Positions 38,270 to 50,492 of a DNA stretch of 64,000 nucleotides are shown one piece after another (within the stretch, counting starts at the first letter, position 1; every line of letters begins with the position of its first letter). The DNA is from Escherichia phage YJin-2024a, in the sequence record PP534475.1. The stretch is one strand, 5' to 3'. The notes beneath the pieces are model-generated. The model saw only the letters and a program-made list of their open reading frames with translations, did not search any database and had not been told where the DNA came from. The position numbers were made by a program, and so were the translations under genes.

Positions 38270-38345
38270 TGGTAGTTAGTAGTGGATTTGAACCACTGTA
38301 GTCGCTCCGTATGAAGGAGGTGCATAACCACTCTGCCAACTAACT
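38270..38345 (-). tRNA. tRNA with CAU anticodon (Met or Ile2)
   Basis: T-arm, 7-bp acceptor pairing, CCA encoded; anticodon loop UUCAUAC. Confidence 0.7.
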
Positions 38346-38441
38346 GTTATGTTTTACTAGACTAAGTAAGTATTCTTTATACTCTTTAGACCAACTAGCT
38401 TTTTTAAACTTTCCTGGACGCATAGTCTTAATTCCTAAATT

Positions 38442-38518
38442 TGGTACTCCGGGAGGGATTTAAACCCCCGATCTCTCGGTTATCAGCCGAGTGCTTTAGA
38501 TCGCTAAGCTACCGAAGC
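38442..38518 (-). tRNA. tRNA-Ile (GAU)
   Basis: Acceptor and T-arm pairing, CCA encoded; loop CUGAUAA. Confidence 0.7.
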
Positions 38519-38519
38519 A

Positions 38520-38726
38520 TTAATATTTAATTGCAGAACGTTTACCATTTCTAGGCGCACCTGGAAGTCGTGCACGTTCTGCCATTCTTCGCTTAATCTT
38601 TGAGATATTTTCTAGTGTTTGTTCTTCAGGCTTAATACCTGAAACACTACACCACTGATTACCATCCCATGCGATAATGATCATAACACCATTACCCATA
38701 ATCTTTTCTGTGAAAGTAATTCTCAT
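38520..38726 (-). CDS. hypothetical protein
   Basis: ORF between tRNA genes; start at internal Met. Confidence 0.35.
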   Translation of the reverse strand: MRITFTEKIMGNGVMIIIAWDGNQWCSVSGIKPEEQTLENISKIKRRMAERARLPGAPRNGKRSAIKY

Positions 38727-39019
38727 TATAGCAACTCGTCTAAGCAAGAGGTATATTTAAGTTTACCATCTTTATCTACTTTGATTTCGACTTCCGCTCG
38801 TGGTACTTGACGAACTACACCATGAATCATCTTATAGCGAATGCCTTTAGCTGGTTCACGATCTTTTGGAAATACTTGCTTAACCGTTACTACCTTGAAA
38901 CCCTCACGCGGTGTTAACACTACTACTTGATCACCTTCTTTGATCTTCCAAGAGCTAGGAAATTCATAGGTATAGCGTTGACCACCAGTTTGGAACACAA
39001 CAGAAAGATAACGTTTCAT
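38726..39019 (-). CDS. hypothetical protein (97 aa)
   Basis: ORF with PN25-like promoter upstream. Confidence 0.5.
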   Translation of the reverse strand: MKRYLSVVFQTGGQRYTYEFPSSWKIKEGDQVVVLTPREGFKVVTVKQVFPKDREPAKGIRYKMIHGVVRQVPRAEVEIKVDKDGKLKYTSCLDELL

Positions 39020-39049
39020 TTGGTTTCCCTCTCATTAATTTATATAAAT

Positions 39050-39078
39050 ATTATAACAAGAAATAAGAGAGAAGGCAA
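39050..39078 (-). promoter_or_regulatory. early sigma70 promoter, PN25-like family
   Basis: TTGCCT-17-TATAAT on the minus strand. Confidence 0.5.
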
Positions 39079-39086
39079 ATGAATTT

Positions 39087-39254
39087 TTAATAAAGTTTAG
39101 TCACTTCATAAACTATACTACGAGATTCTTTATTACGTTGTATTAAATTAGCGTATGCTTCTTCAGCTTCATTTTTAGTATTAAAGTCTATAACGTGAGA
39201 GGTATTAGCTCTATTTGATTGGCTATACCAGATAACTACTAGGAGTTTAAACAT
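39087..39254 (-). CDS. hypothetical protein
   Basis: Start moved to the internal Met with AAGGAT RBS to avoid the adjacent tRNA. Confidence 0.35.
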   Translation of the reverse strand: MFKLLVVIWYSQSNRANTSHVIDFNTKNEAEEAYANLIQRNKESRSIVYEVTKLY

Positions 39255-39268
39255 ACTAATCCTTAAAT

Positions 39269-39355
39269 TGGTGCTGGGCACAGGATTCGAACCTGCAACG
39301 GGATTACTCCTCCTGATTACAAATCAGGTGCATTCAACCATTCTGCCAACCCAGC
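39269..39355 (-). tRNA. type II tRNA (long variable arm), anticodon loop UUUGUAA, isotype uncertain
   Basis: 87 nt; 3-bp D stem and 15-nt variable arm; anticodon reads UGU, which is atypical for a type II body. Confidence 0.5.
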
Positions 39356-39520
39356 AGAACCCGTTATTTCAACGGGATTTCTTTTTCAATAACAAGAGAC
39401 TTGTCAGTCATAACTGTCATTGCCATTTGTTGTAGAAATTCAAAGGTGAAGGCTACACGTTCTTCACCAATCTCTACTTCTACACGTTTCTTTTGTTTAT
39501 CGATCTTGACTTTTAGGTTA

Positions 39521-48103: not shown

Positions 48104-48124
48104 TATTAAGGGGAGGAGCCCATT

Positions 48125-48541
48125 ATGAGTAAATATGGTTTTGTAAATAACGGACTTAATCAAAGTATGGGCTCCCAGCAGCCCGTTCCGGGTCTGGATA
48201 ACCCCTACTTACAACAGTTGCAACAGCGTTTAGCAGAAGCGCAACAGATGCAGCAACAACTCCAGCAAAACCCTGGAAGTGTAAGTCCTATGCAAATGAT
48301 GCAGCAAATGAGCGGGCAGTCGCAAATGCCTCAACAAATGCAGCAACAGATGCCGCAGCAGCAAGTTCAGCAACAAACCCAACAACCGCAGGTTTCTGCG
48401 GAGGGACAGGCAGTACTAGCCCTTTTCGAAGACTTCGCAAAGACAGAGGATGGGAAACAGCTTGTATCACTTATGGGTAAGTTTAATAGCTTCTGCCAAA
48501 GCCAAGTTGCAAAAGCTCAAAATGGTGGTAATAACTCCTAA
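48125..48541 (+). CDS. Gln-rich (prion-like composition) protein
   Basis: GGAGGAG RBS; about 40 percent Gln in the central region. Confidence 0.55.
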   Translation: MSKYGFVNNGLNQSMGSQQPVPGLDNPYLQQLQQRLAEAQQMQQQLQQNPGSVSPMQMMQQMSGQSQMPQQMQQQMPQQQVQQQTQQPQVSAEGQAVLALFEDFAKTEDGKQLVSLMGKFNSFCQSQVAKAQNGGNNS

Positions 48542-48550
48542 GGAGAAATT

Positions 48551-48745
48551 ATGTGTTGCAGAAAATCTGTTTCGTGCTGCCCAATGCCTGTAGCACGTTG
48601 TTGCTCTCCAGCAATGTTTACGCAAATACCGGCGTTCAATCCGTTTGCCTTTAAGCCTACTCTTATCCTGCCCCCTAGAGTAGATTTTCAGTCAAGATTG
48701 GCCTCCCGTATGGGTGGTTGCTGTACACCGAGAGTGTGGTTCTAA
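48551..48745 (+). CDS. Cys-rich peptide with four CC doublets
   Basis: AAGGAGA RBS 7 nt upstream; MCCRK...CC...CC...CC. Confidence 0.45.
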   Translation: MCCRKSVSCCPMPVARCCSPAMFTQIPAFNPFAFKPTLILPPRVDFQSRLASRMGGCCTPRVWF

Positions 48746-48756
48746 ACCAAAAACAA

Positions 48757-48839
48757 AAGCCCCTGCCGAAAGGTAAGGGGCTTTTTCTTTTGCCTTAAAT
48801 ACAGAAAAGCCCTGCGCTCTCCAGGAAACGCAGGGCTTA
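48757..48839. terminator. bidirectional terminator region between convergent genes (two hairpins)
   Basis: AGCCCCT-loop-AGGGGCT followed by T-run; GCCCTGCG-loop-CGCAGGGC with T-run on the minus strand. Confidence 0.6.
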
Positions 48840-48861
48840 CTTCAGATGTTACATGCGGGTA

Positions 48862-49809
48862 TTATTTATTACGCATATCCATAATCATTTGGCCATCGTA
48901 ACCAGTTCCCACTACTGTTTGCGGTACACCACCTTGGTATTTCTGAGCACGAATCATTTCGACTTCCAGTTGTTTCCAACGAATCATCTCAGGAGTAATG
49001 GTACGTTGCAGTGCGGCGTTAGCTTCAGCTTCTTTCTTAGCTGCATACAGTTTAGCATCTGCATCACGTTCGTTAGCAATAGCTTGGTTATTACGAGCTT
49101 CGCGATCTGCTTCTGCTTGTTTAACCTTCTGCTGTGCTTCTTGTTCAACACGAGCCAACTCAGCTTTTGCAGCATTAACTTGCTCTTCACGAACTTTGGT
49201 ATTCTGTACCTGTTCCATGATTACTGGAGGCAGAGTAATATCCTGAAGGAATACCTGCTTAACTGTGTAACCATATGGGCGTGCATACTCTTCAACTTCT
49301 TGTTGAATTGCAGTTTGCAATTGAGCCTGAATTTTAGCATCAAACAAATCTTGTGCTTTAGGTACAGACTTACCAAACTCACGAATAGTAGACAGTAATT
49401 TTTCAGTTACATACTTGTCTAGCGCCTGATCCTGAGTACCTGCGTTAATGCGGTTAATCGGTGCCTTAGAACCATCAAACTGCAACATAACAGTCAGGTC
49501 AACAGTGGATTTAAACTTATCCTGACTAGGAACCTGAAGTTTATCTAATTTTAGAGCAATATCTTTAGTACTAAAAGTATCGAAAGAAGCAAAAGGATTT
49601 ACAATATGAAAGCCGGGTAATACTGGGCTAGGGTCAACTTTACCCAGGAAAGTCTGGGTTTTAACAGTACCGTCTTGAACAACAGTATAGGAGTTAAGGG
49701 CCAGAACTAAACCTACCAAACCAACTGCAGCACCAATACCCCAACGTTTGATATTACGCATCAATTTTTGCTCATAAGTCAGTTCTTTAGTGTTTTTAGT
49801 AGCAAACAT
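48862..49809 (-). CDS. SPFH / band-7 (prohibitin-like) membrane protein
   Basis: N-terminal TM helix, SPFH-like core, Ala/Glu/Gln-rich coiled-coil C-terminus. Confidence 0.65.
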   Translation of the reverse strand: MFATKNTKELTYEQKLMRNIKRWGIGAAVGLVGLVLALNSYTVVQDGTVKTQTFLGKVDPSPVLPGFHIVNPFASFDTFSTKDIALKLDKLQVPSQDKFKSTVDLTVMLQFDGSKAPINRINAGTQDQALDKYVTEKLLSTIREFGKSVPKAQDLFDAKIQAQLQTAIQQEVEEYARPYGYTVKQVFLQDITLPPVIMEQVQNTKVREEQVNAAKAELARVEQEAQQKVKQAEADREARNNQAIANERDADAKLYAAKKEAEANAALQRTITPEMIRWKQLEVEMIRAQKYQGGVPQTVVGTGYDGQMIMDMRNK

Positions 49810-49843
49810 ATATTTCCTTTGTTTTAGTTACAGTTAATAAAAT

Positions 49844-49918
49844 TGGCCGAGGTGACAGGATTCGAACCTGCATAAAGGAATTTAGAAGACTCCTGCCTCT
49901 CCCTTAGACTACACCCCG
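49844..49918 (-). tRNA. tRNA-Arg (UCU)
   Basis: Acceptor and T-arm pairing; loop CUUCUAA. Confidence 0.65.
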
Positions 49919-50420
49919 TTTAAGTATTTTTAAGAACTCTCGTAAAAACTCTTAAAAATACAGACGATACCGGGAGAGTCATAAGTCTCACTCATTAAGT
50001 ATTTCAAGACAAAATACAGTAACGTCTATTATTTTCCAGTTTAAGTCAGGGTGACTTAGTGGTTATGTCCTGCGGTATATTGAGGACTCGGTTAGGCTTG
50101 GGGTCATGACTTCCCACCTTTTGCTGCTACTCAACAGGAGTTATCGCGAATTACCTGTGCTATTGTGCACCATTAGTGACATCTCTCATGTCAGCATTTC
50201 CCACTTTGTGGATAGCTTGAAAAACTACTCCGATATGGAGAAAGAACTTCACTATCCTAGAATACCTTCTAAAGTTCTTCTTTAGCCTGGACATAGTTAA
50301 ATCGTAATAAAACTATTCAGCAGACTGGTTGGTTAGTCTGGAACCAACTACCGCGTGGTTTAGGCAGTGCGCAACTAACCTCGGAAGCTTTTACATTAAA
50401 AGCACCAGTTATCCAGTTCT

Positions 50421-50492
50421 TACCGACCGTAGGACTCGAACCTACATCTTCCACCAGTTACGGCTTGATAATACCAATTATACTAGGACGGC
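50421..50492 (-). tRNA. tRNA-like element without a recognisable anticodon arm
   Basis: Perfect T-arm and D-loop-like TAATTGGTA, acceptor with one mismatch, no CCA. Confidence 0.3.

What the first reader, a model, noticed from the sequence alone, without database searches (positions are those of the whole stretch)
38270..50492. tRNA cluster of about 25 genes includes several non-canonical members
Most tRNAs here fold canonically, but several do not. The tRNA at 39269-39355 has a type II body (3-bp D stem, 15-nt variable arm) with a UGU anticodon. The one at 43513-43595 has a GUU anticodon with an extra 13-nt hairpin. Two Leu-anticodon tRNAs (UAG, UAA) have short variable arms. The element at 46187-46261 has a 6-nt anticodon loop. 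The element at 44264-44340 has a Trp-like anticodon arm but no acceptor pairing. Further T-arm-like elements lack anticodon arms. No Val, Phe or GGU-Thr tRNA was found. Phage tRNA variants have been linked to escape from host anticodon nucleases and tRNA-targeting defences, so these are candidates for decoy or nuclease-resistant tRNAs.
Basis: partly seen in the sequence, partly recalled or inferred. Interest (0 to 1): 0.6.

Follow-up and report, generated by a model that had tools for sequence, protein, structure and literature searches.

The report
Shape-switched tRNAs in a T5-like phage
This is the well-known tRNA gene block of a T5-like phage, but its threonine and asparagine tRNAs carry an extra hairpin arm and its two leucine tRNAs lack the usual long arm; these are real, conserved phage tRNA families, and the altered shape may help them escape bacterial tRNA-cutting defences.

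Summary
The window is a Tequintavirus (T5-like) tRNA region, 96-98% identical to many GenBank phages. It holds 24 credible tRNA genes, a Ser(GGA) remnant, and the tRNA-like "stable RNAs" already annotated in T5.

- **Confirmed:**
  - tRNA-Thr(UGU) is 87 nt, with a 3-bp D stem and a 15-nt variable arm.
  - tRNA-Asn(GUU) is 83 nt, with a 13-nt variable hairpin.
  - Leu(UAG) and Leu(UAA) are 77 nt, with 5-nt variable loops.
  - T-arm-only elements exist; they lie in T5 RNA1, RNA2 and RNAX and in the Ser(GGA) remnant.
- **Wrong:**
  - Phe(GAA) is present.
  - The 46187-46261 tRNA has a normal 7-nt anticodon loop.
  - Trp pairs at 5 of 7 acceptor positions.

**What the odd tRNAs are**
- They are alternative alleles at slots where T5 itself has standard-shaped tRNAs.
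- Each belongs to a wider phage family with compensatory base changes.
- Each keeps the identity elements of its cognate synthetase.
- The Thr body is built on a Ser-type scaffold, which other phages reuse for Trp and Cys.

**Link to defence**
- Thr(UGU) and Asn(GUU) are two of the three main targets of the PARIS nuclease AriB.
- Within T5-likes, short alleles mutate the cleavage site, while long-arm alleles keep it.
- Phage Bas33 carries the identical Thr allele; its published rescue behaviour fits a functional, resistant tRNA.
- The shielding mechanism is my inference and is untested.

The parts
39269..39355 (-). Class II (long-arm) tRNA-Thr(UGU), 87 nt. Ser-type D arm GCA-GAAUGGUUGAA-UGC, variable hairpin GGA-GUAA-UCC, acceptor G1-C72/C2-G71, A73, encoded CCA. 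The anticodon stem keeps host-like U36AAUC|A41 and the CUG/CAG motifs.
   Evidence: ARAGORN; Rfam 58.9 bits; 100% identical in about 50 phage records including Bas33; family members
43513..43595 (-). tRNA-Asn(GUU), 83 nt, with an inserted variable hairpin GUC-GAAA-GAC, G73, and a host-like anticodon arm (U36AAUCC41).
   Evidence: ARAGORN; Rfam 59 bits; minimum-energy fold is cloverleaf plus hairpin; family with compensatory stems
41179..41255 (-). Class I (short-arm) tRNA-Leu(UAG), 77 nt. 3-bp D stem, D loop GAAUUGGCAUA, variable loop GUUUU, A73.
   Evidence: ARAGORN; Rfam 47.5 bits; family covariation
45399..45475 (-). Class I tRNA-Leu(UAA), 77 nt, a paralogue of the UAG gene with the same D loop and variable loop and compensated stems. 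T5 itself has no gene at this slot.
   Evidence: ARAGORN; Rfam 57.4 bits; identical in 15 of 15 IMG/VR T5-like loci that carry it
41719..41797 (-). tRNA-Lys(UUU), 79 nt, with an enlarged D loop and U36AAUCG41. This is a different allele from T5's PARIS-resistant Lys (UAAACC).
44264..44340 (-). tRNA-Trp(CCA), 77 nt, with U2.U71 and U3.U70 acceptor mismatches, A1-U72 and G73. A different allele from T5's 71-nt Trp.
46187..46261 (-). CAU-anticodon tRNA at the slot of T5 tRNA-Ile2. Normal 7-nt anticodon loop; D loop AAAGUUA lacks GG; T loop is UUAGAUU.
   Evidence: Rfam 61.6 bits with alignment; ARAGORN; synteny with T5
41261..41339 (-). tRNA-Ala(UGC), 79 nt, with G3.U70 and an odd D arm. Found by ARAGORN; not listed by Rfam even at E<=10.
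39759..39835 (-). tRNA-Gly(UCC), identical to T5 tRNA-Gly. Missed by default ARAGORN and by the Rfam tRNA model.
38270..38518 (-). tRNA-Met(CAU) at 38270-38345 and tRNA-Ile(GAU) at 38442-38518; 100% identical to T5 over the aligned stretch (Ile: positions 2-77).
39843..40311 (-). tRNA-Gln(UUG), tRNA-Gln(CUG) and tRNA-His(GUG).
40313..40674 (-). Homologues of T5 stable RNAs: RNAIII (40313-40418), RNAI (40423-40529) and the tRNA-like RNA1 (40530-40674, with a T arm at 40549-40565).
   Evidence: 86-98% identity to T5 misc_RNA features; Rfam tRNA 25 bits, below threshold
40880..41067 (-). tRNA-Ser(UGA), 90 nt (40880-40969), and a decayed Ser(GGA) remnant (40977-41067).
41359..41530 (-). Homologue of T5 stable RNA2H.
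   Evidence: 98% identity
41987..42148 (-). Initiator-type tRNA-Met (identical to T5 fMet) and tRNA-Pro(UGG).
42398..42643 (-). Homologues of T5 RNAIV (42398-42500) and the tRNA-like RNA2 (42519-42643, with two T arms).
   Evidence: 96% identity; T arms
43139..43510 (-). tRNA-Asp(GUC) at 43139-43215 and a homologue of T5 RNA3 (putative tRNA-like) at 43438-43510.
43748..44257 (-). tRNA-Cys(GCA) at 43748-43823 and tRNA-Phe(GAA) at 44183-44257.
44349..44518 (-). tRNA-Glu(UUC) and class II tRNA-Tyr(GUA), 87 nt.
45771..46172 (-). HNH homing-endonuclease ORF (133 aa) directly upstream of the CAU tRNA and Ser(GCU) pair.
   Evidence: Pfam HNH_3, E=1e-19; not found by tblastn in any of the other 28 T5-like loci compared
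46268..46361 (-). tRNA-Ser(GCU), 94 nt; a different allele from T5's 89-nt gene.
49844..49918 (-). tRNA-Arg(UCU), identical to T5.
50421..50492 (-). tRNA-like element with no CCA and a poor anticodon arm. The syntenic ARAGORN call in T5 lies inside T5 'RNAX'.
   Evidence: Rfam tRNA 34.2 bits; ARAGORN only with relaxed settings; the same call in T5 at L003:15432-15505, inside the RNAX feature

Best explanation
The region is the tRNA gene block of a T5-like phage. The three structural oddities are working tRNA genes: class II Thr(UGU), Asn(GUU) with an inserted variable hairpin, and class I Leu(UAG/UAA). They are alternative alleles that sit in the same genomic slots as the standard-shaped T5 tRNAs. 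Each keeps the acceptor stem, discriminator base and anticodon features that the cognate host synthetase reads, so each is most likely charged with its normal amino acid and used in translation.

**Shown**
- The genes and their folds.
- Their membership in wider phage families whose stems change in a compensatory way.
- Their absence from E. coli genomes.
- The Ser-type origin of the Thr scaffold.

**Inferred**
- The changed body shape is an anti-defence adaptation. For Thr and Asn, the extra hairpin starts 3-4 nucleotides after the site where Toprim nucleases (PARIS AriB; P2 OLD for Thr) cut the anticodon stem.
- I propose it blocks docking of a nuclease that must grip both the anticodon stem (nt 40/41) and the D loop (nt 16/17).
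- This would let the tRNA keep a host-like anticodon arm, whereas the short T5 alleles escape by mutating U39.
- For Leu, loss of the long arm may similarly remove a handle used by some class II-specific factor. No such factor has been identified.
For: **Real tRNAs**
- ARAGORN and Rfam call all of them.

**Allelic replacement**
- Neighbouring tRNA and stable-RNA genes are 86-100% identical to T5, but the Thr, Asn, Leu(UAG), Trp, Ala, Gln, Ile2 and Ser(GCU) genes give no BLAST match to T5.
- Both allele types occur among 21 IMG/VR T5-like loci.

**Class I Leu family**
- I collected 138 unique class I Leu sequences; 137 have A73.
- On a 50-sequence alignment, 98.9% of cells are paired and 402 cells show changes on both sides. 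The covariation score is 1.083, against 0.255 for shuffles and at most 0.22 for slid registers.
- A class I-specific pattern found only 68 stretches in 185,579 species genomes, most of them in dense tRNA arrays.

**Variable hairpins**
- About 30 distinct stems are found in Thr, Asn, Trp, Cys, Lys, Glu and Met tRNAs. All but one V region give a short predicted hairpin (2-5 bp, most often 3-4 bp), and just over half have G..A tetraloops.
- Asn stems include GUC/GAC, GUCA/UGAC, GUUC/GAAC and AUCC/GGAU.

**Ser-type scaffold with matching identity**
- The D arm GCA-GARWGGYUGAA-UGC belongs mostly to tRNA-Ser: 45 of 57 unique hits.
- The Thr, Trp and Cys versions carry Thr (G1-C72, C2-G71, A73), Trp (A1-U72, G2, G3, G73) and Cys (U73) acceptor ends.

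**Defence link**
- AriB's main targets are Lys(UUU), Thr(UGU) and Asn(GUU), cut at 40|41 in UAAUC|A. T5's alleles are substituted at or around that cleavage site, and resistance also depends on distal contacts (PMC12409363).
- P2-OLD prefers Thr(UGU) (PMC12445682).
- In 28 T5-like loci, every short Thr or Asn allele has U39 changed and every long-arm allele keeps UAAUC.
- Bas33 (HildyBeyeler) carries the identical class II Thr and no Lys(UUU). It is rescued from PARIS by T5 tRNA-Lys alone, whereas T7 needs Lys plus Thr.

**Not host-derived**
- Neither the Thr nor the Leu(UAG) gene has a match in 5,426 E. coli genomes.
Against: - No charging, cleavage or expression data exist for these alleles. 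The Bas33 argument is indirect and was not drawn by the authors.
- The class II Thr keeps both the AriB site and the P2-OLD CNG pseudo-palindrome, so by sequence alone it looks sensitive.
- The split between 'long arm with host-like site' and 'short arm with mutated site' rests on few independent alleles. It does not hold across phages of other hosts.
- Long-arm versions also occur for Trp, Cys, Glu, Met and Ile(UAU), for which no matching nuclease is known.
- One study states that E. coli LeuRS charges only type II tRNA-Leu; this was tested on a Streptomyces type I tRNA (PMC6614811). Charging of the phage class I Leu in E. coli is therefore unproven.
- No nuclease specific for class II tRNA-Leu is known in enterobacteria.
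Confidence: 0.55

Rival explanations
1. Neutral or historical shape change. Phage tRNAs evolve under relaxed constraint. The Thr gene descends from a tRNA-Ser gene after an anticodon change (UGA to UGU is one base), and its shortened arm is a leftover. The Leu genes lost an arm that LeuRS does not need. The tRNAs work, but their shape has no role in defence.
For: - The Ser-type D arm is shared with 45 phage tRNA-Ser sequences.
- Class-switched tRNAs occur for many isotypes and hosts, with no known matching nuclease.
- The link between long arm and retained cleavage site does not hold outside T5-likes.
- A natural class I tRNA-Leu exists in Streptomyces with no defence context (PMC6614811).
Against: - The hairpins are maintained by compensatory changes across Demerecviridae and Straboviridae, often with tetraloops, which implies selection on the hairpin itself.
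- In T5-likes the only long-arm class I isotypes seen are two of the three main AriB targets. By my own back-of-envelope estimate, about 2% chance if two of roughly 17 class I slots were picked at random.
- In T5-likes the split between site-mutated short alleles and site-retaining long alleles is perfect.
Confidence: 0.25
2. Decoys or sponges. The odd tRNAs are not used in translation. They bind or soak up host nucleases because they keep host-like anticodon arms.
For: - Thr and Asn keep the exact host recognition sequences (UAAUCA, UAAUCC, CUG/CAG).
- The PARIS authors raise competition as a possibility for overexpressed viral tRNAs.
Against: - The encoded CCA end, full ThrRS and AsnRS identity sets, and A73 in 137 of 138 class I Leu are features a decoy would not need.
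- The class II Thr is the only Thr tRNA in the cluster.
- Bas33 needs only Lys to escape PARIS, which implies ACA codons are still being read.
Confidence: 0.12
3. Homing-endonuclease-driven cassette exchange. The allelic diversity at tRNA slots reflects selfish HNH endonucleases that cut tRNA genes and carry in resistant, divergent alleles. It does not reflect host defence.
For: - An HNH ORF lies directly upstream of the divergent CAU tRNA and Ser(GCU) pair.
- In the loci where ARAGORN called both, hegD is always next to the 78-nt Gln(UUG) allele.
- T5 annotates several HNH genes inside its tRNA block.
Against: - No endonuclease gene flanks the Thr, Asn or Leu genes in the window.
- The type II Leu(UAG) allele occurs both with and without hegC.
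- This idea explains why sequences differ, not why structural class changes or why hairpins are conserved.
Confidence: 0.1
4. Mischarging or recoding. The Ser-derived class II Thr(UGU) is still serylated, or leucylated through A73, so ACA codons are misread.
For: It has a Ser-type D arm including C11-G24, a long variable arm and A73.
Against: - The variable stem is only 3 bp.
- The acceptor end is G1-C72/C2-G71 with A73, not G2-C71 with G73.
- The anticodon G35/U36 and the first two acceptor pairs match the E. coli ThrRS identity set (established tRNA identity rules; PMC9976931 reviews them).
- The same scaffold carries Trp-type and Cys-type acceptor ends when the anticodon is CCA or GCA, which shows selection for cognate charging.
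Confidence: 0.03

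Closest known systems
Bacteriophage T5 tRNA gene region (NC_005859; 24-25 tRNAs plus stable RNAs RNA1, RNA2, RNA3, RNAI, RNAIII, RNAIV, RNA2H, RNAX)
   Same: Same gene order and strand. About 13 tRNAs and 7 stable RNAs are 86-100% identical.
   Different: - Thr, Asn, Leu(UAG), Trp, Ala, both Gln, Ile2-slot and Ser(GCU) genes are unrelated alleles.
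- T5 Thr is 75 nt (class I), Asn 78 nt, Leu(UAG) 85 nt (class II).
- T5 has Val and Ser(GGA) and lacks Leu(UAA).
PARIS-resistant T5 tRNA-Lys(UUU), Thr(UGU) and Asn(GUU) (PMC11464382, PMC12409363)
   Same: Same isoacceptors, same genomic slots and the same presumed selective pressure.
   Different: - T5 alleles carry substitutions at or near the cut site (UAAACC, UAAGCA, UAAGUU).
- The window alleles keep UAAUC and instead carry an extra hairpin (Thr, Asn) or an enlarged D loop (Lys).
- Their resistance has not been measured.
Type I tRNA-Leu(CAA) of Streptomyces coelicolor and mitochondrial tRNA-Leu (PMC6614811)
   Same: A tRNA-Leu with a 5-nt variable loop that coexists with class II Leu tRNAs and a single LeuRS.
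   Different: - The phage family has UAG, UAA or CAA anticodons and an E. coli-like D loop (GAAUUGGCAUA).
- A73 is nearly invariant in the phage family, whereas in Streptomyces A73 is not an identity element.
- The phage family lives in phage and mobile-element tRNA arrays.
Bacterial and phage tRNA-Ser (class II)
   Same: Identical D-arm consensus GCA-GAGUGGUUGAA-UGC, a similar T arm, and often a GNRA-capped variable arm.
   Different: - The variable stem is 2-4 bp, shorter than the longer stems typical of tRNA-Ser.
- The acceptor stem, discriminator and anticodon are those of Thr, Trp or Cys.
allo-tRNAs (Ser/Leu-type tRNAs with non-cognate anticodons and 8/4 or 9/3 acceptor/T stems; recalled from Mukai et al. 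2017, not checked here)
   Same: A Ser-like class II body carrying a non-Ser anticodon.
   Different: The stem geometry here is the standard 7/5, and the acceptor end has been converted to the anticodon's own identity. Cognate charging, not recoding, is expected.

Membership tests
tRNA (Rfam RF00005) | Covariance-model score at or above the gathering threshold (29 bits) over the full model | tested here: met
   Thr 58.9, Asn 59.0, Leu(UAG) 47.5, Leu(UAA) 57.4, CAU tRNA 61.6, Trp 36.3 bits. Ala(UGC) and Gly(UCC) are not detected by this model but are called by ARAGORN.
tRNA (Rfam RF00005) | 7-nt anticodon loop with U33 and a purine at 37 | tested here: met
   All 23 ARAGORN folds have it. 46187-46261 reads CUCAUAA.
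Class II (long-variable-arm) tRNA | Variable region of 10 nt or more that forms a stem-loop | tested here: met
   Thr has 15 nt (GGA/UCC plus GUAA) and Asn has 13 nt (GUC/GAC plus GAAA). Stems covary in relatives.
Class II (long-variable-arm) tRNA | Restricted to Leu, Ser and Tyr (and Sec) in bacteria | tested here: not met
   The anticodons are UGU (Thr) and GUU (Asn). The two Leu genes have 5-nt variable loops.
E. coli tRNA-Thr identity set (G1-C72, C2-G71, G35, U36; established identity rules) | All four elements present | tested here: met
   The sequence reads GCUGGGU...GCCCAGC-A-CCA with anticodon UGU. Actual charging is not testable with these tools.
E. coli tRNA-Ser identity (long variable stem, G73, G2-C71) | Long variable stem plus G73 and G2-C71 | tested here: not met
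   The stem is 3 bp, the discriminator is A73 and the second pair is C2-G71.
E. coli tRNA-Leu identity (A73, U8-A14, characteristic D loop with G18G19) | A73 and a Leu-type D arm | tested here: met
   Both genes have A73, a 3-bp D stem and GAAUUGGCAUA. A73 is present in 137 of 138 family members; A14, A15, G18 and G19 are invariant.
E. coli tRNA-Leu identity (A73, U8-A14, characteristic D loop with G18G19) | Substrate for E. coli or Salmonella LeuRS | not testable with these tools
   PMC6614811 reports that EcLeuRS does not charge a Streptomyces type I tRNA-Leu. No data exist for the phage tRNAs.
Nuclease-resistant phage tRNA of the T5 type (PARIS/OLD escape) | Substitutions at the cleavage site (U39, nt 41) or altered CNG motifs or a shortened anticodon stem | tested here: not met
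   Thr keeps UAAUCA and CUG/CAG; Asn keeps UAAUCC; Lys has only A41G. The STG2 variant of the class II Thr does lose the 27-43 pair.
Nuclease-resistant phage tRNA of the T5 type (PARIS/OLD escape) | Not cleaved by the nuclease and rescues infection | not testable with these tools
   There is only the indirect Bas33 result: the identical Thr allele, with rescue by Lys alone (PMC12409363).
T5 tRNA-like stable RNAs (RNA1, RNA2, RNA3, RNAX and others) | Sequence homology and synteny with the annotated T5 misc_RNA features | tested here: met
   Seven features match at 86-100% identity and in the same order. For RNAX there is only synteny: the same relaxed ARAGORN call lies inside the T5 RNAX feature. 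The T-arm-only elements lie inside these RNAs, apart from one in the Ser(GGA) remnant.
allo-tRNA | 8/4 or 9/3 acceptor/T-stem geometry with a Ser or Leu identity end | tested here: not met
   The geometry is 7/5 and the acceptor end is Thr-type.

The most novel reading that the evidence does not exclude
Phages and mobile tRNA arrays systematically switch tRNAs between the two structural classes as a shape-based way to evade tRNA-targeting immunity. They add a short, tetraloop-capped variable hairpin to class I tRNAs (Thr, Asn, Lys, Trp, Cys, Ile-UAU and others). This sterically blocks anticodon-stem nucleases such as PARIS AriB and P2 OLD while keeping a host-like, optimally decoding anticodon arm. 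They also delete the long arm from tRNA-Leu to escape a factor that recognises class II tRNAs. This would be a second escape route, independent of the anticodon-loop and stem mutations described so far.
Probability: 0.3. Interest if true: 0.75.

Novelty: new variant of a known kind. Interest (0 to 1): 0.55.

Why it matters
Textbook rules say that bacterial Leu, Ser and Tyr tRNAs have a long variable arm and all other tRNAs do not. This window shows the rule broken in both directions, in coliphages and Salmonella phages that sit in hundreds of GenBank records labelled simply 'tRNA-Thr', 'tRNA-Asn' or 'tRNA-Leu'.

If the extra arm protects against Toprim nucleases, three things follow:
- It explains how a phage tRNA can resist cleavage without changing the sequence the nuclease reads.
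- It gives a design rule for nuclease-proof tRNAs in phage therapy and synthetic biology.
- It gives a direct probe of how AriB and OLD dock on tRNA.

The experiment is easy, because BASEL phage Bas33 carries the identical Thr allele and has already been run through PARIS assays.

The class I Leu family also raises a separate question: can enterobacterial LeuRS charge arm-less tRNA-Leu?

Tried and rejected
- **Pseudogenes or annotation artefacts.** Rejected. Both detectors call them, relatives are conserved, and stems covary.
- **6-nt anticodon loop in 46187-46261.** Rejected. It is an alternative hairpin seen only in thermodynamic folding. The Rfam alignment gives a 7-nt loop, and the one variant site in relatives falls in the canonical variable loop.
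- **Host origin.** No match for the Thr or Leu(UAG) genes in 5,426 E. coli genomes.
- **Linked allele set (class II Thr with class I Leu).** Rejected. All combinations occur.
- **A general rule that long-arm alleles keep the host-like UAAUC.** It holds in T5-likes but not across other phages.
- **hegC linkage to type II Leu(UAG).** Not consistent.
- **Literature.** Papers on phage tRNAs and tRNA-targeting defences that I searched do not mention the variable arm. Supplementary files that might list the OLD screen's eight rescuing Thr tRNAs, or the Bas33 tRNA alignment, are not held.
- **Not used.** Protein homology, structure prediction and custom covariance models; the question was about RNA genes that standard tools already resolve.

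Full report
**Context**

The 13-kb stretch matches 1,225 phage records. It is 96-98% identical to Tequintavirus genomes from Salmonella and E. coli, such as GSP044, Stokescottia, vB_Sen-E22 and slur09. Their annotations show the same minus-strand row of tRNA genes interleaved with small ORFs. The T5 reference record has the same layout. It also annotates eight "stable RNAs", some described as tRNA-like.

**Checking the observation**

- ARAGORN finds 23 tRNAs and Rfam finds 23 above threshold.
- The two sets differ by two loci:
  - Ala(UGC) at 41261-41339 is found only by ARAGORN.
  - A tRNA-like element at 50421-50492 is found only by Rfam. The syntenic ARAGORN call in T5 lies inside RNAX.
- Relaxed ARAGORN adds Gly(UCC) at 39759-39835, which is identical to the T5 tRNA-Gly.

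| Locus | tRNA | Length | Unusual feature |
|---|---|---|---|
| 39269-39355 | Thr(UGU) | 87 nt | 3-bp D stem; 15-nt variable arm GGA-GUAA-UCC |
| 43513-43595 | Asn(GUU) | 83 nt | 13-nt variable hairpin GUC-GAAA-GAC |
| 41179-41255 | Leu(UAG) | 77 nt | 5-nt variable loop |
| 45399-45475 | Leu(UAA) | 77 nt | 5-nt variable loop |

Three claims fail:

- Phe(GAA) is present at 44183-44257.
- The 46187-46261 tRNA has a 7-nt loop, CUCAUAA.
- Trp pairs at 5 of 7 acceptor positions, with two U.U mismatches.

The T-arm-only elements lie inside homologues of T5 RNA1, RNA2 and RNAX and inside a decayed Ser(GGA) gene. Val is absent.

**Alleles, not one-off mutations**

- BLAST of every T5 feature against the window shows Met, Ile1, Gly, His, fMet, Asp, Cys, Phe, Glu, Tyr, Arg and Ser(UGA), plus seven stable RNAs, at 86-100% identity.
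- Thr, both Gln, Leu(UAG), Ala, Asn, Trp, Ile2 and Ser(GCU) give no meaningful match, although they occupy the same slots.
- In T5 the Thr is 75 nt, the Asn 78 nt and the Leu(UAG) 85 nt.
- Across 21 IMG/VR T5-like loci both allele types occur in all combinations: Thr 75 or 87 nt, Asn 78 or 83 nt, Leu(UAG) 77 or 83-87 nt, Leu(UAA) always 77 nt.
- About 100 phage records carry the 87-nt Thr.

**Class I tRNA-Leu is a large phage family**

- Homologues occur in:
  - Proteus and Aeromonas Demerecviridae;
  - a Pseudomonas Schitoviridae phage;
  - many IMG/VR contigs.
- I collected 138 unique class I Leu sequences; A73 is present in 137.
- On a 50-sequence alignment, A14, A15, G18 and G19 are invariant.
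- On that alignment, 98.9% of cells are paired and 402 show changes on both sides. The covariation score is 1.083, against 0.255 for shuffles and at most 0.22 for slid registers.
- A class I-specific pattern found only 68 stretches in 185,579 species genomes. Most sit in arrays of 10-28 tRNA genes per 8 kb, which I read as mobile-element arrays.
- A natural class I tRNA-Leu is known in Streptomyces coelicolor. That paper states that E. coli LeuRS charges only type II, so charging of the phage tRNAs in E. coli remains open (PMC6614811).

**The class II Thr sits on a Ser-type scaffold**

- Its D arm, GCA-GARWGGYUGAA-UGC, retrieves 57 unique tRNAs from IMG/VR. Of these, 45 are tRNA-Ser and 5 are Thr(UGU) of 85-87 nt. 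There is also one Trp(CCA) of 87 nt and one Cys(GCA) of 86 nt.
- Aeromonas phage PX29 and Erwinia phage IT22, both Straboviridae, carry the Thr and Trp versions.
- The non-Ser versions all have a 2-4-bp variable stem, usually with a GNRA loop.
- Their acceptor ends match the anticodon: G1-C72/C2-G71/A73 for Thr, A1-U72/G2/G3/G73 for Trp, and U73 for Cys.
- This co-variation of anticodon and acceptor end argues for cognate charging, not serylation.

**The long-arm Asn family**

- This family occurs in T5-like phages and in Klebsiella, Enterobacter and Morganella T4-like phages.
- Its variable stems differ but stay complementary: GUC/GAC, GUCA/UGAC, GUUC/GAAC and AUCC/GGAU.
- Across all fetched loci, about 30 distinct variable hairpins appear in Thr, Asn, Trp, Cys, Lys, Glu and Met tRNAs.

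**Link to defence**

- PARIS AriB cleaves E. coli tRNA-Lys(UUU), Thr(UGU) and Asn(GUU) between nt 40 and 41 in U36AAUC|A. T5's versions of the three together neutralise PARIS (PMC12409363).
- Restoring the site in T5 Lys does not restore cleavage. An AlphaFold3 model places the second AriB monomer on D-loop nt 16-17 (same paper).
- In 28 T5-like loci, every short Thr allele reads UAAGCA, UAAACC or UAAGCG and every short Asn reads UAAGUU. Every long-arm Thr keeps UAAUCA with CUG/CAG, and every long-arm Asn keeps UAAUCC.
- This looks like two alternative answers to one pressure. However, it rests on few independent alleles and does not generalise to phages of other hosts.
- The hairpin begins 3-4 nt after the cut site. 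A clash with a nuclease that spans the anticodon stem and D loop is plausible, but this is my inference.

**Indirect experimental support**

- HildyBeyeler is BASEL phage Bas33, as its locus tags show. It carries a Thr gene 100% identical to the window's, an intact 86-nt Asn, and no Lys(UUU).
- The PARIS study found Bas33 rescued by T5 tRNA-Lys alone. T7, which has no tRNAs, needed Lys plus Thr.
- This fits a functional, AriB-resistant class II Thr.
- The same study could not explain why Bas34's own Asn did not protect. In SelmaRatti (Bas34), the 'Asn' is a deletion chimera of the Asn 5' part fused to the fMet 3' end.

**Rival explanations**

- **Neutral drift or a Ser-gene relic.** This remains the main rival.
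- **Decoy function.** Disfavoured, because synthetase identity features are conserved.
- **Homing endonucleases.** They may explain some allele swaps: hegD lies next to the 78-nt Gln(UUG) allele wherever both were called, and an HNH ORF sits at 45771-46172. They do not explain the shape changes.
- **Mischarging.** Unlikely.

**Novelty**

- The cluster, the stable RNAs and the concept of nuclease-resistant phage tRNAs are all known.
- The class switching of phage tRNA bodies is not discussed in any paper I could search, including the phage-tRNA defence papers and a review of non-canonical tRNAs.
- I rate this a new variant of a known kind, with moderate interest and an easy experimental test.

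Noticed in passing
L018 (IMGVR_UViG_2974654585_000001), Trp slot between Glu and Phe: One T5-like genome has the same 77-nt Trp-slot tRNA with a CUA anticodon instead of CCA (a single C-to-U change). This is a natural amber-suppressor variant.
   Followed up: no
L012 (Salmonella phage SP3 region); L472:14334-14410 and L472:12403-12490 (SelmaRatti = Bas34): Deletions in T5-like tRNA blocks end in chimeric tRNA genes made by recombination between similar arms. Examples are class II Thr 5' fused to Met 3' (SP3), long-arm Asn 5' fused to fMet 3', and His 5' fused to Gly 3' (both Bas34). The Bas34 'tRNA-Asn' is therefore probably dead, which would explain a puzzle in PMC12409363.
   Followed up: partly
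many loci, e.g. L402, L413, L423, L185, L230, L346: There are 23 unique tRNA-Ile(UAU) genes of 90-95 nt with a long variable arm in phage contigs and mobile tRNA arrays. Class II-like Lys(UUU) (85-88 nt), Cys, Glu and Met also occur. Class switching is broader than the window's examples.
   Followed up: partly
window 46187-46261: The CAU tRNA at the T5 Ile2 slot has a D loop without the GG pair (AAAGUUA) and a T loop UUAGAUU (A where C56 normally is), which suggests a re-wired elbow. Whether it is Met or lysidine-modified Ile2 cannot be told from sequence.
   Followed up: partly
window 41261-41339 and 39759-39835: Ala(UGC) is invisible to the Rfam tRNA model even at E<=10. Gly(UCC) is missed by default ARAGORN and by Rfam tRNA. 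Yet Ala has G3.U70 and compensatory changes in Bas33, and the T5 record notes that its identical Gly becomes an effective amber suppressor when the anticodon is replaced.
   Followed up: partly
window 45771-46172 (minus strand): A 133-aa HNH (HNH_3) homing-endonuclease ORF lies directly upstream of the divergent CAU tRNA and Ser(GCU) alleles. tblastn did not find it in any of the other 28 T5-like loci compared.
   Followed up: partly
window 40530-40674 (homologue of T5 RNA1): The tRNA-like stable RNA1 has a class II Leu-type D arm (CCG-GAAUUGGUAGA-CGG in the T5 copy), a good T arm, no CCA, and a roughly 70-nt insert where the anticodon arm should be. It looks like a disabled or repurposed tRNA-Leu.
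   Followed up: no
L040:12001-12087 (Salmonella phage STG2): The STG2 copy of the class II Thr has G43-to-A, which removes the 27-43 pair. This resembles the stem-shortening change reported to help phage Thr tRNAs resist P2-OLD.
   Followed up: no
window 50753-51196 and 48862-49809 (minus strand): Two flanking ORFs: a weak YqeY-like match (25.4 bits, below the 27-bit Pfam cut-off), whose homologue is labelled 'tRNA amidotransferase' in T5 records, and an SPFH/Band-7 protein.
   Followed up: no
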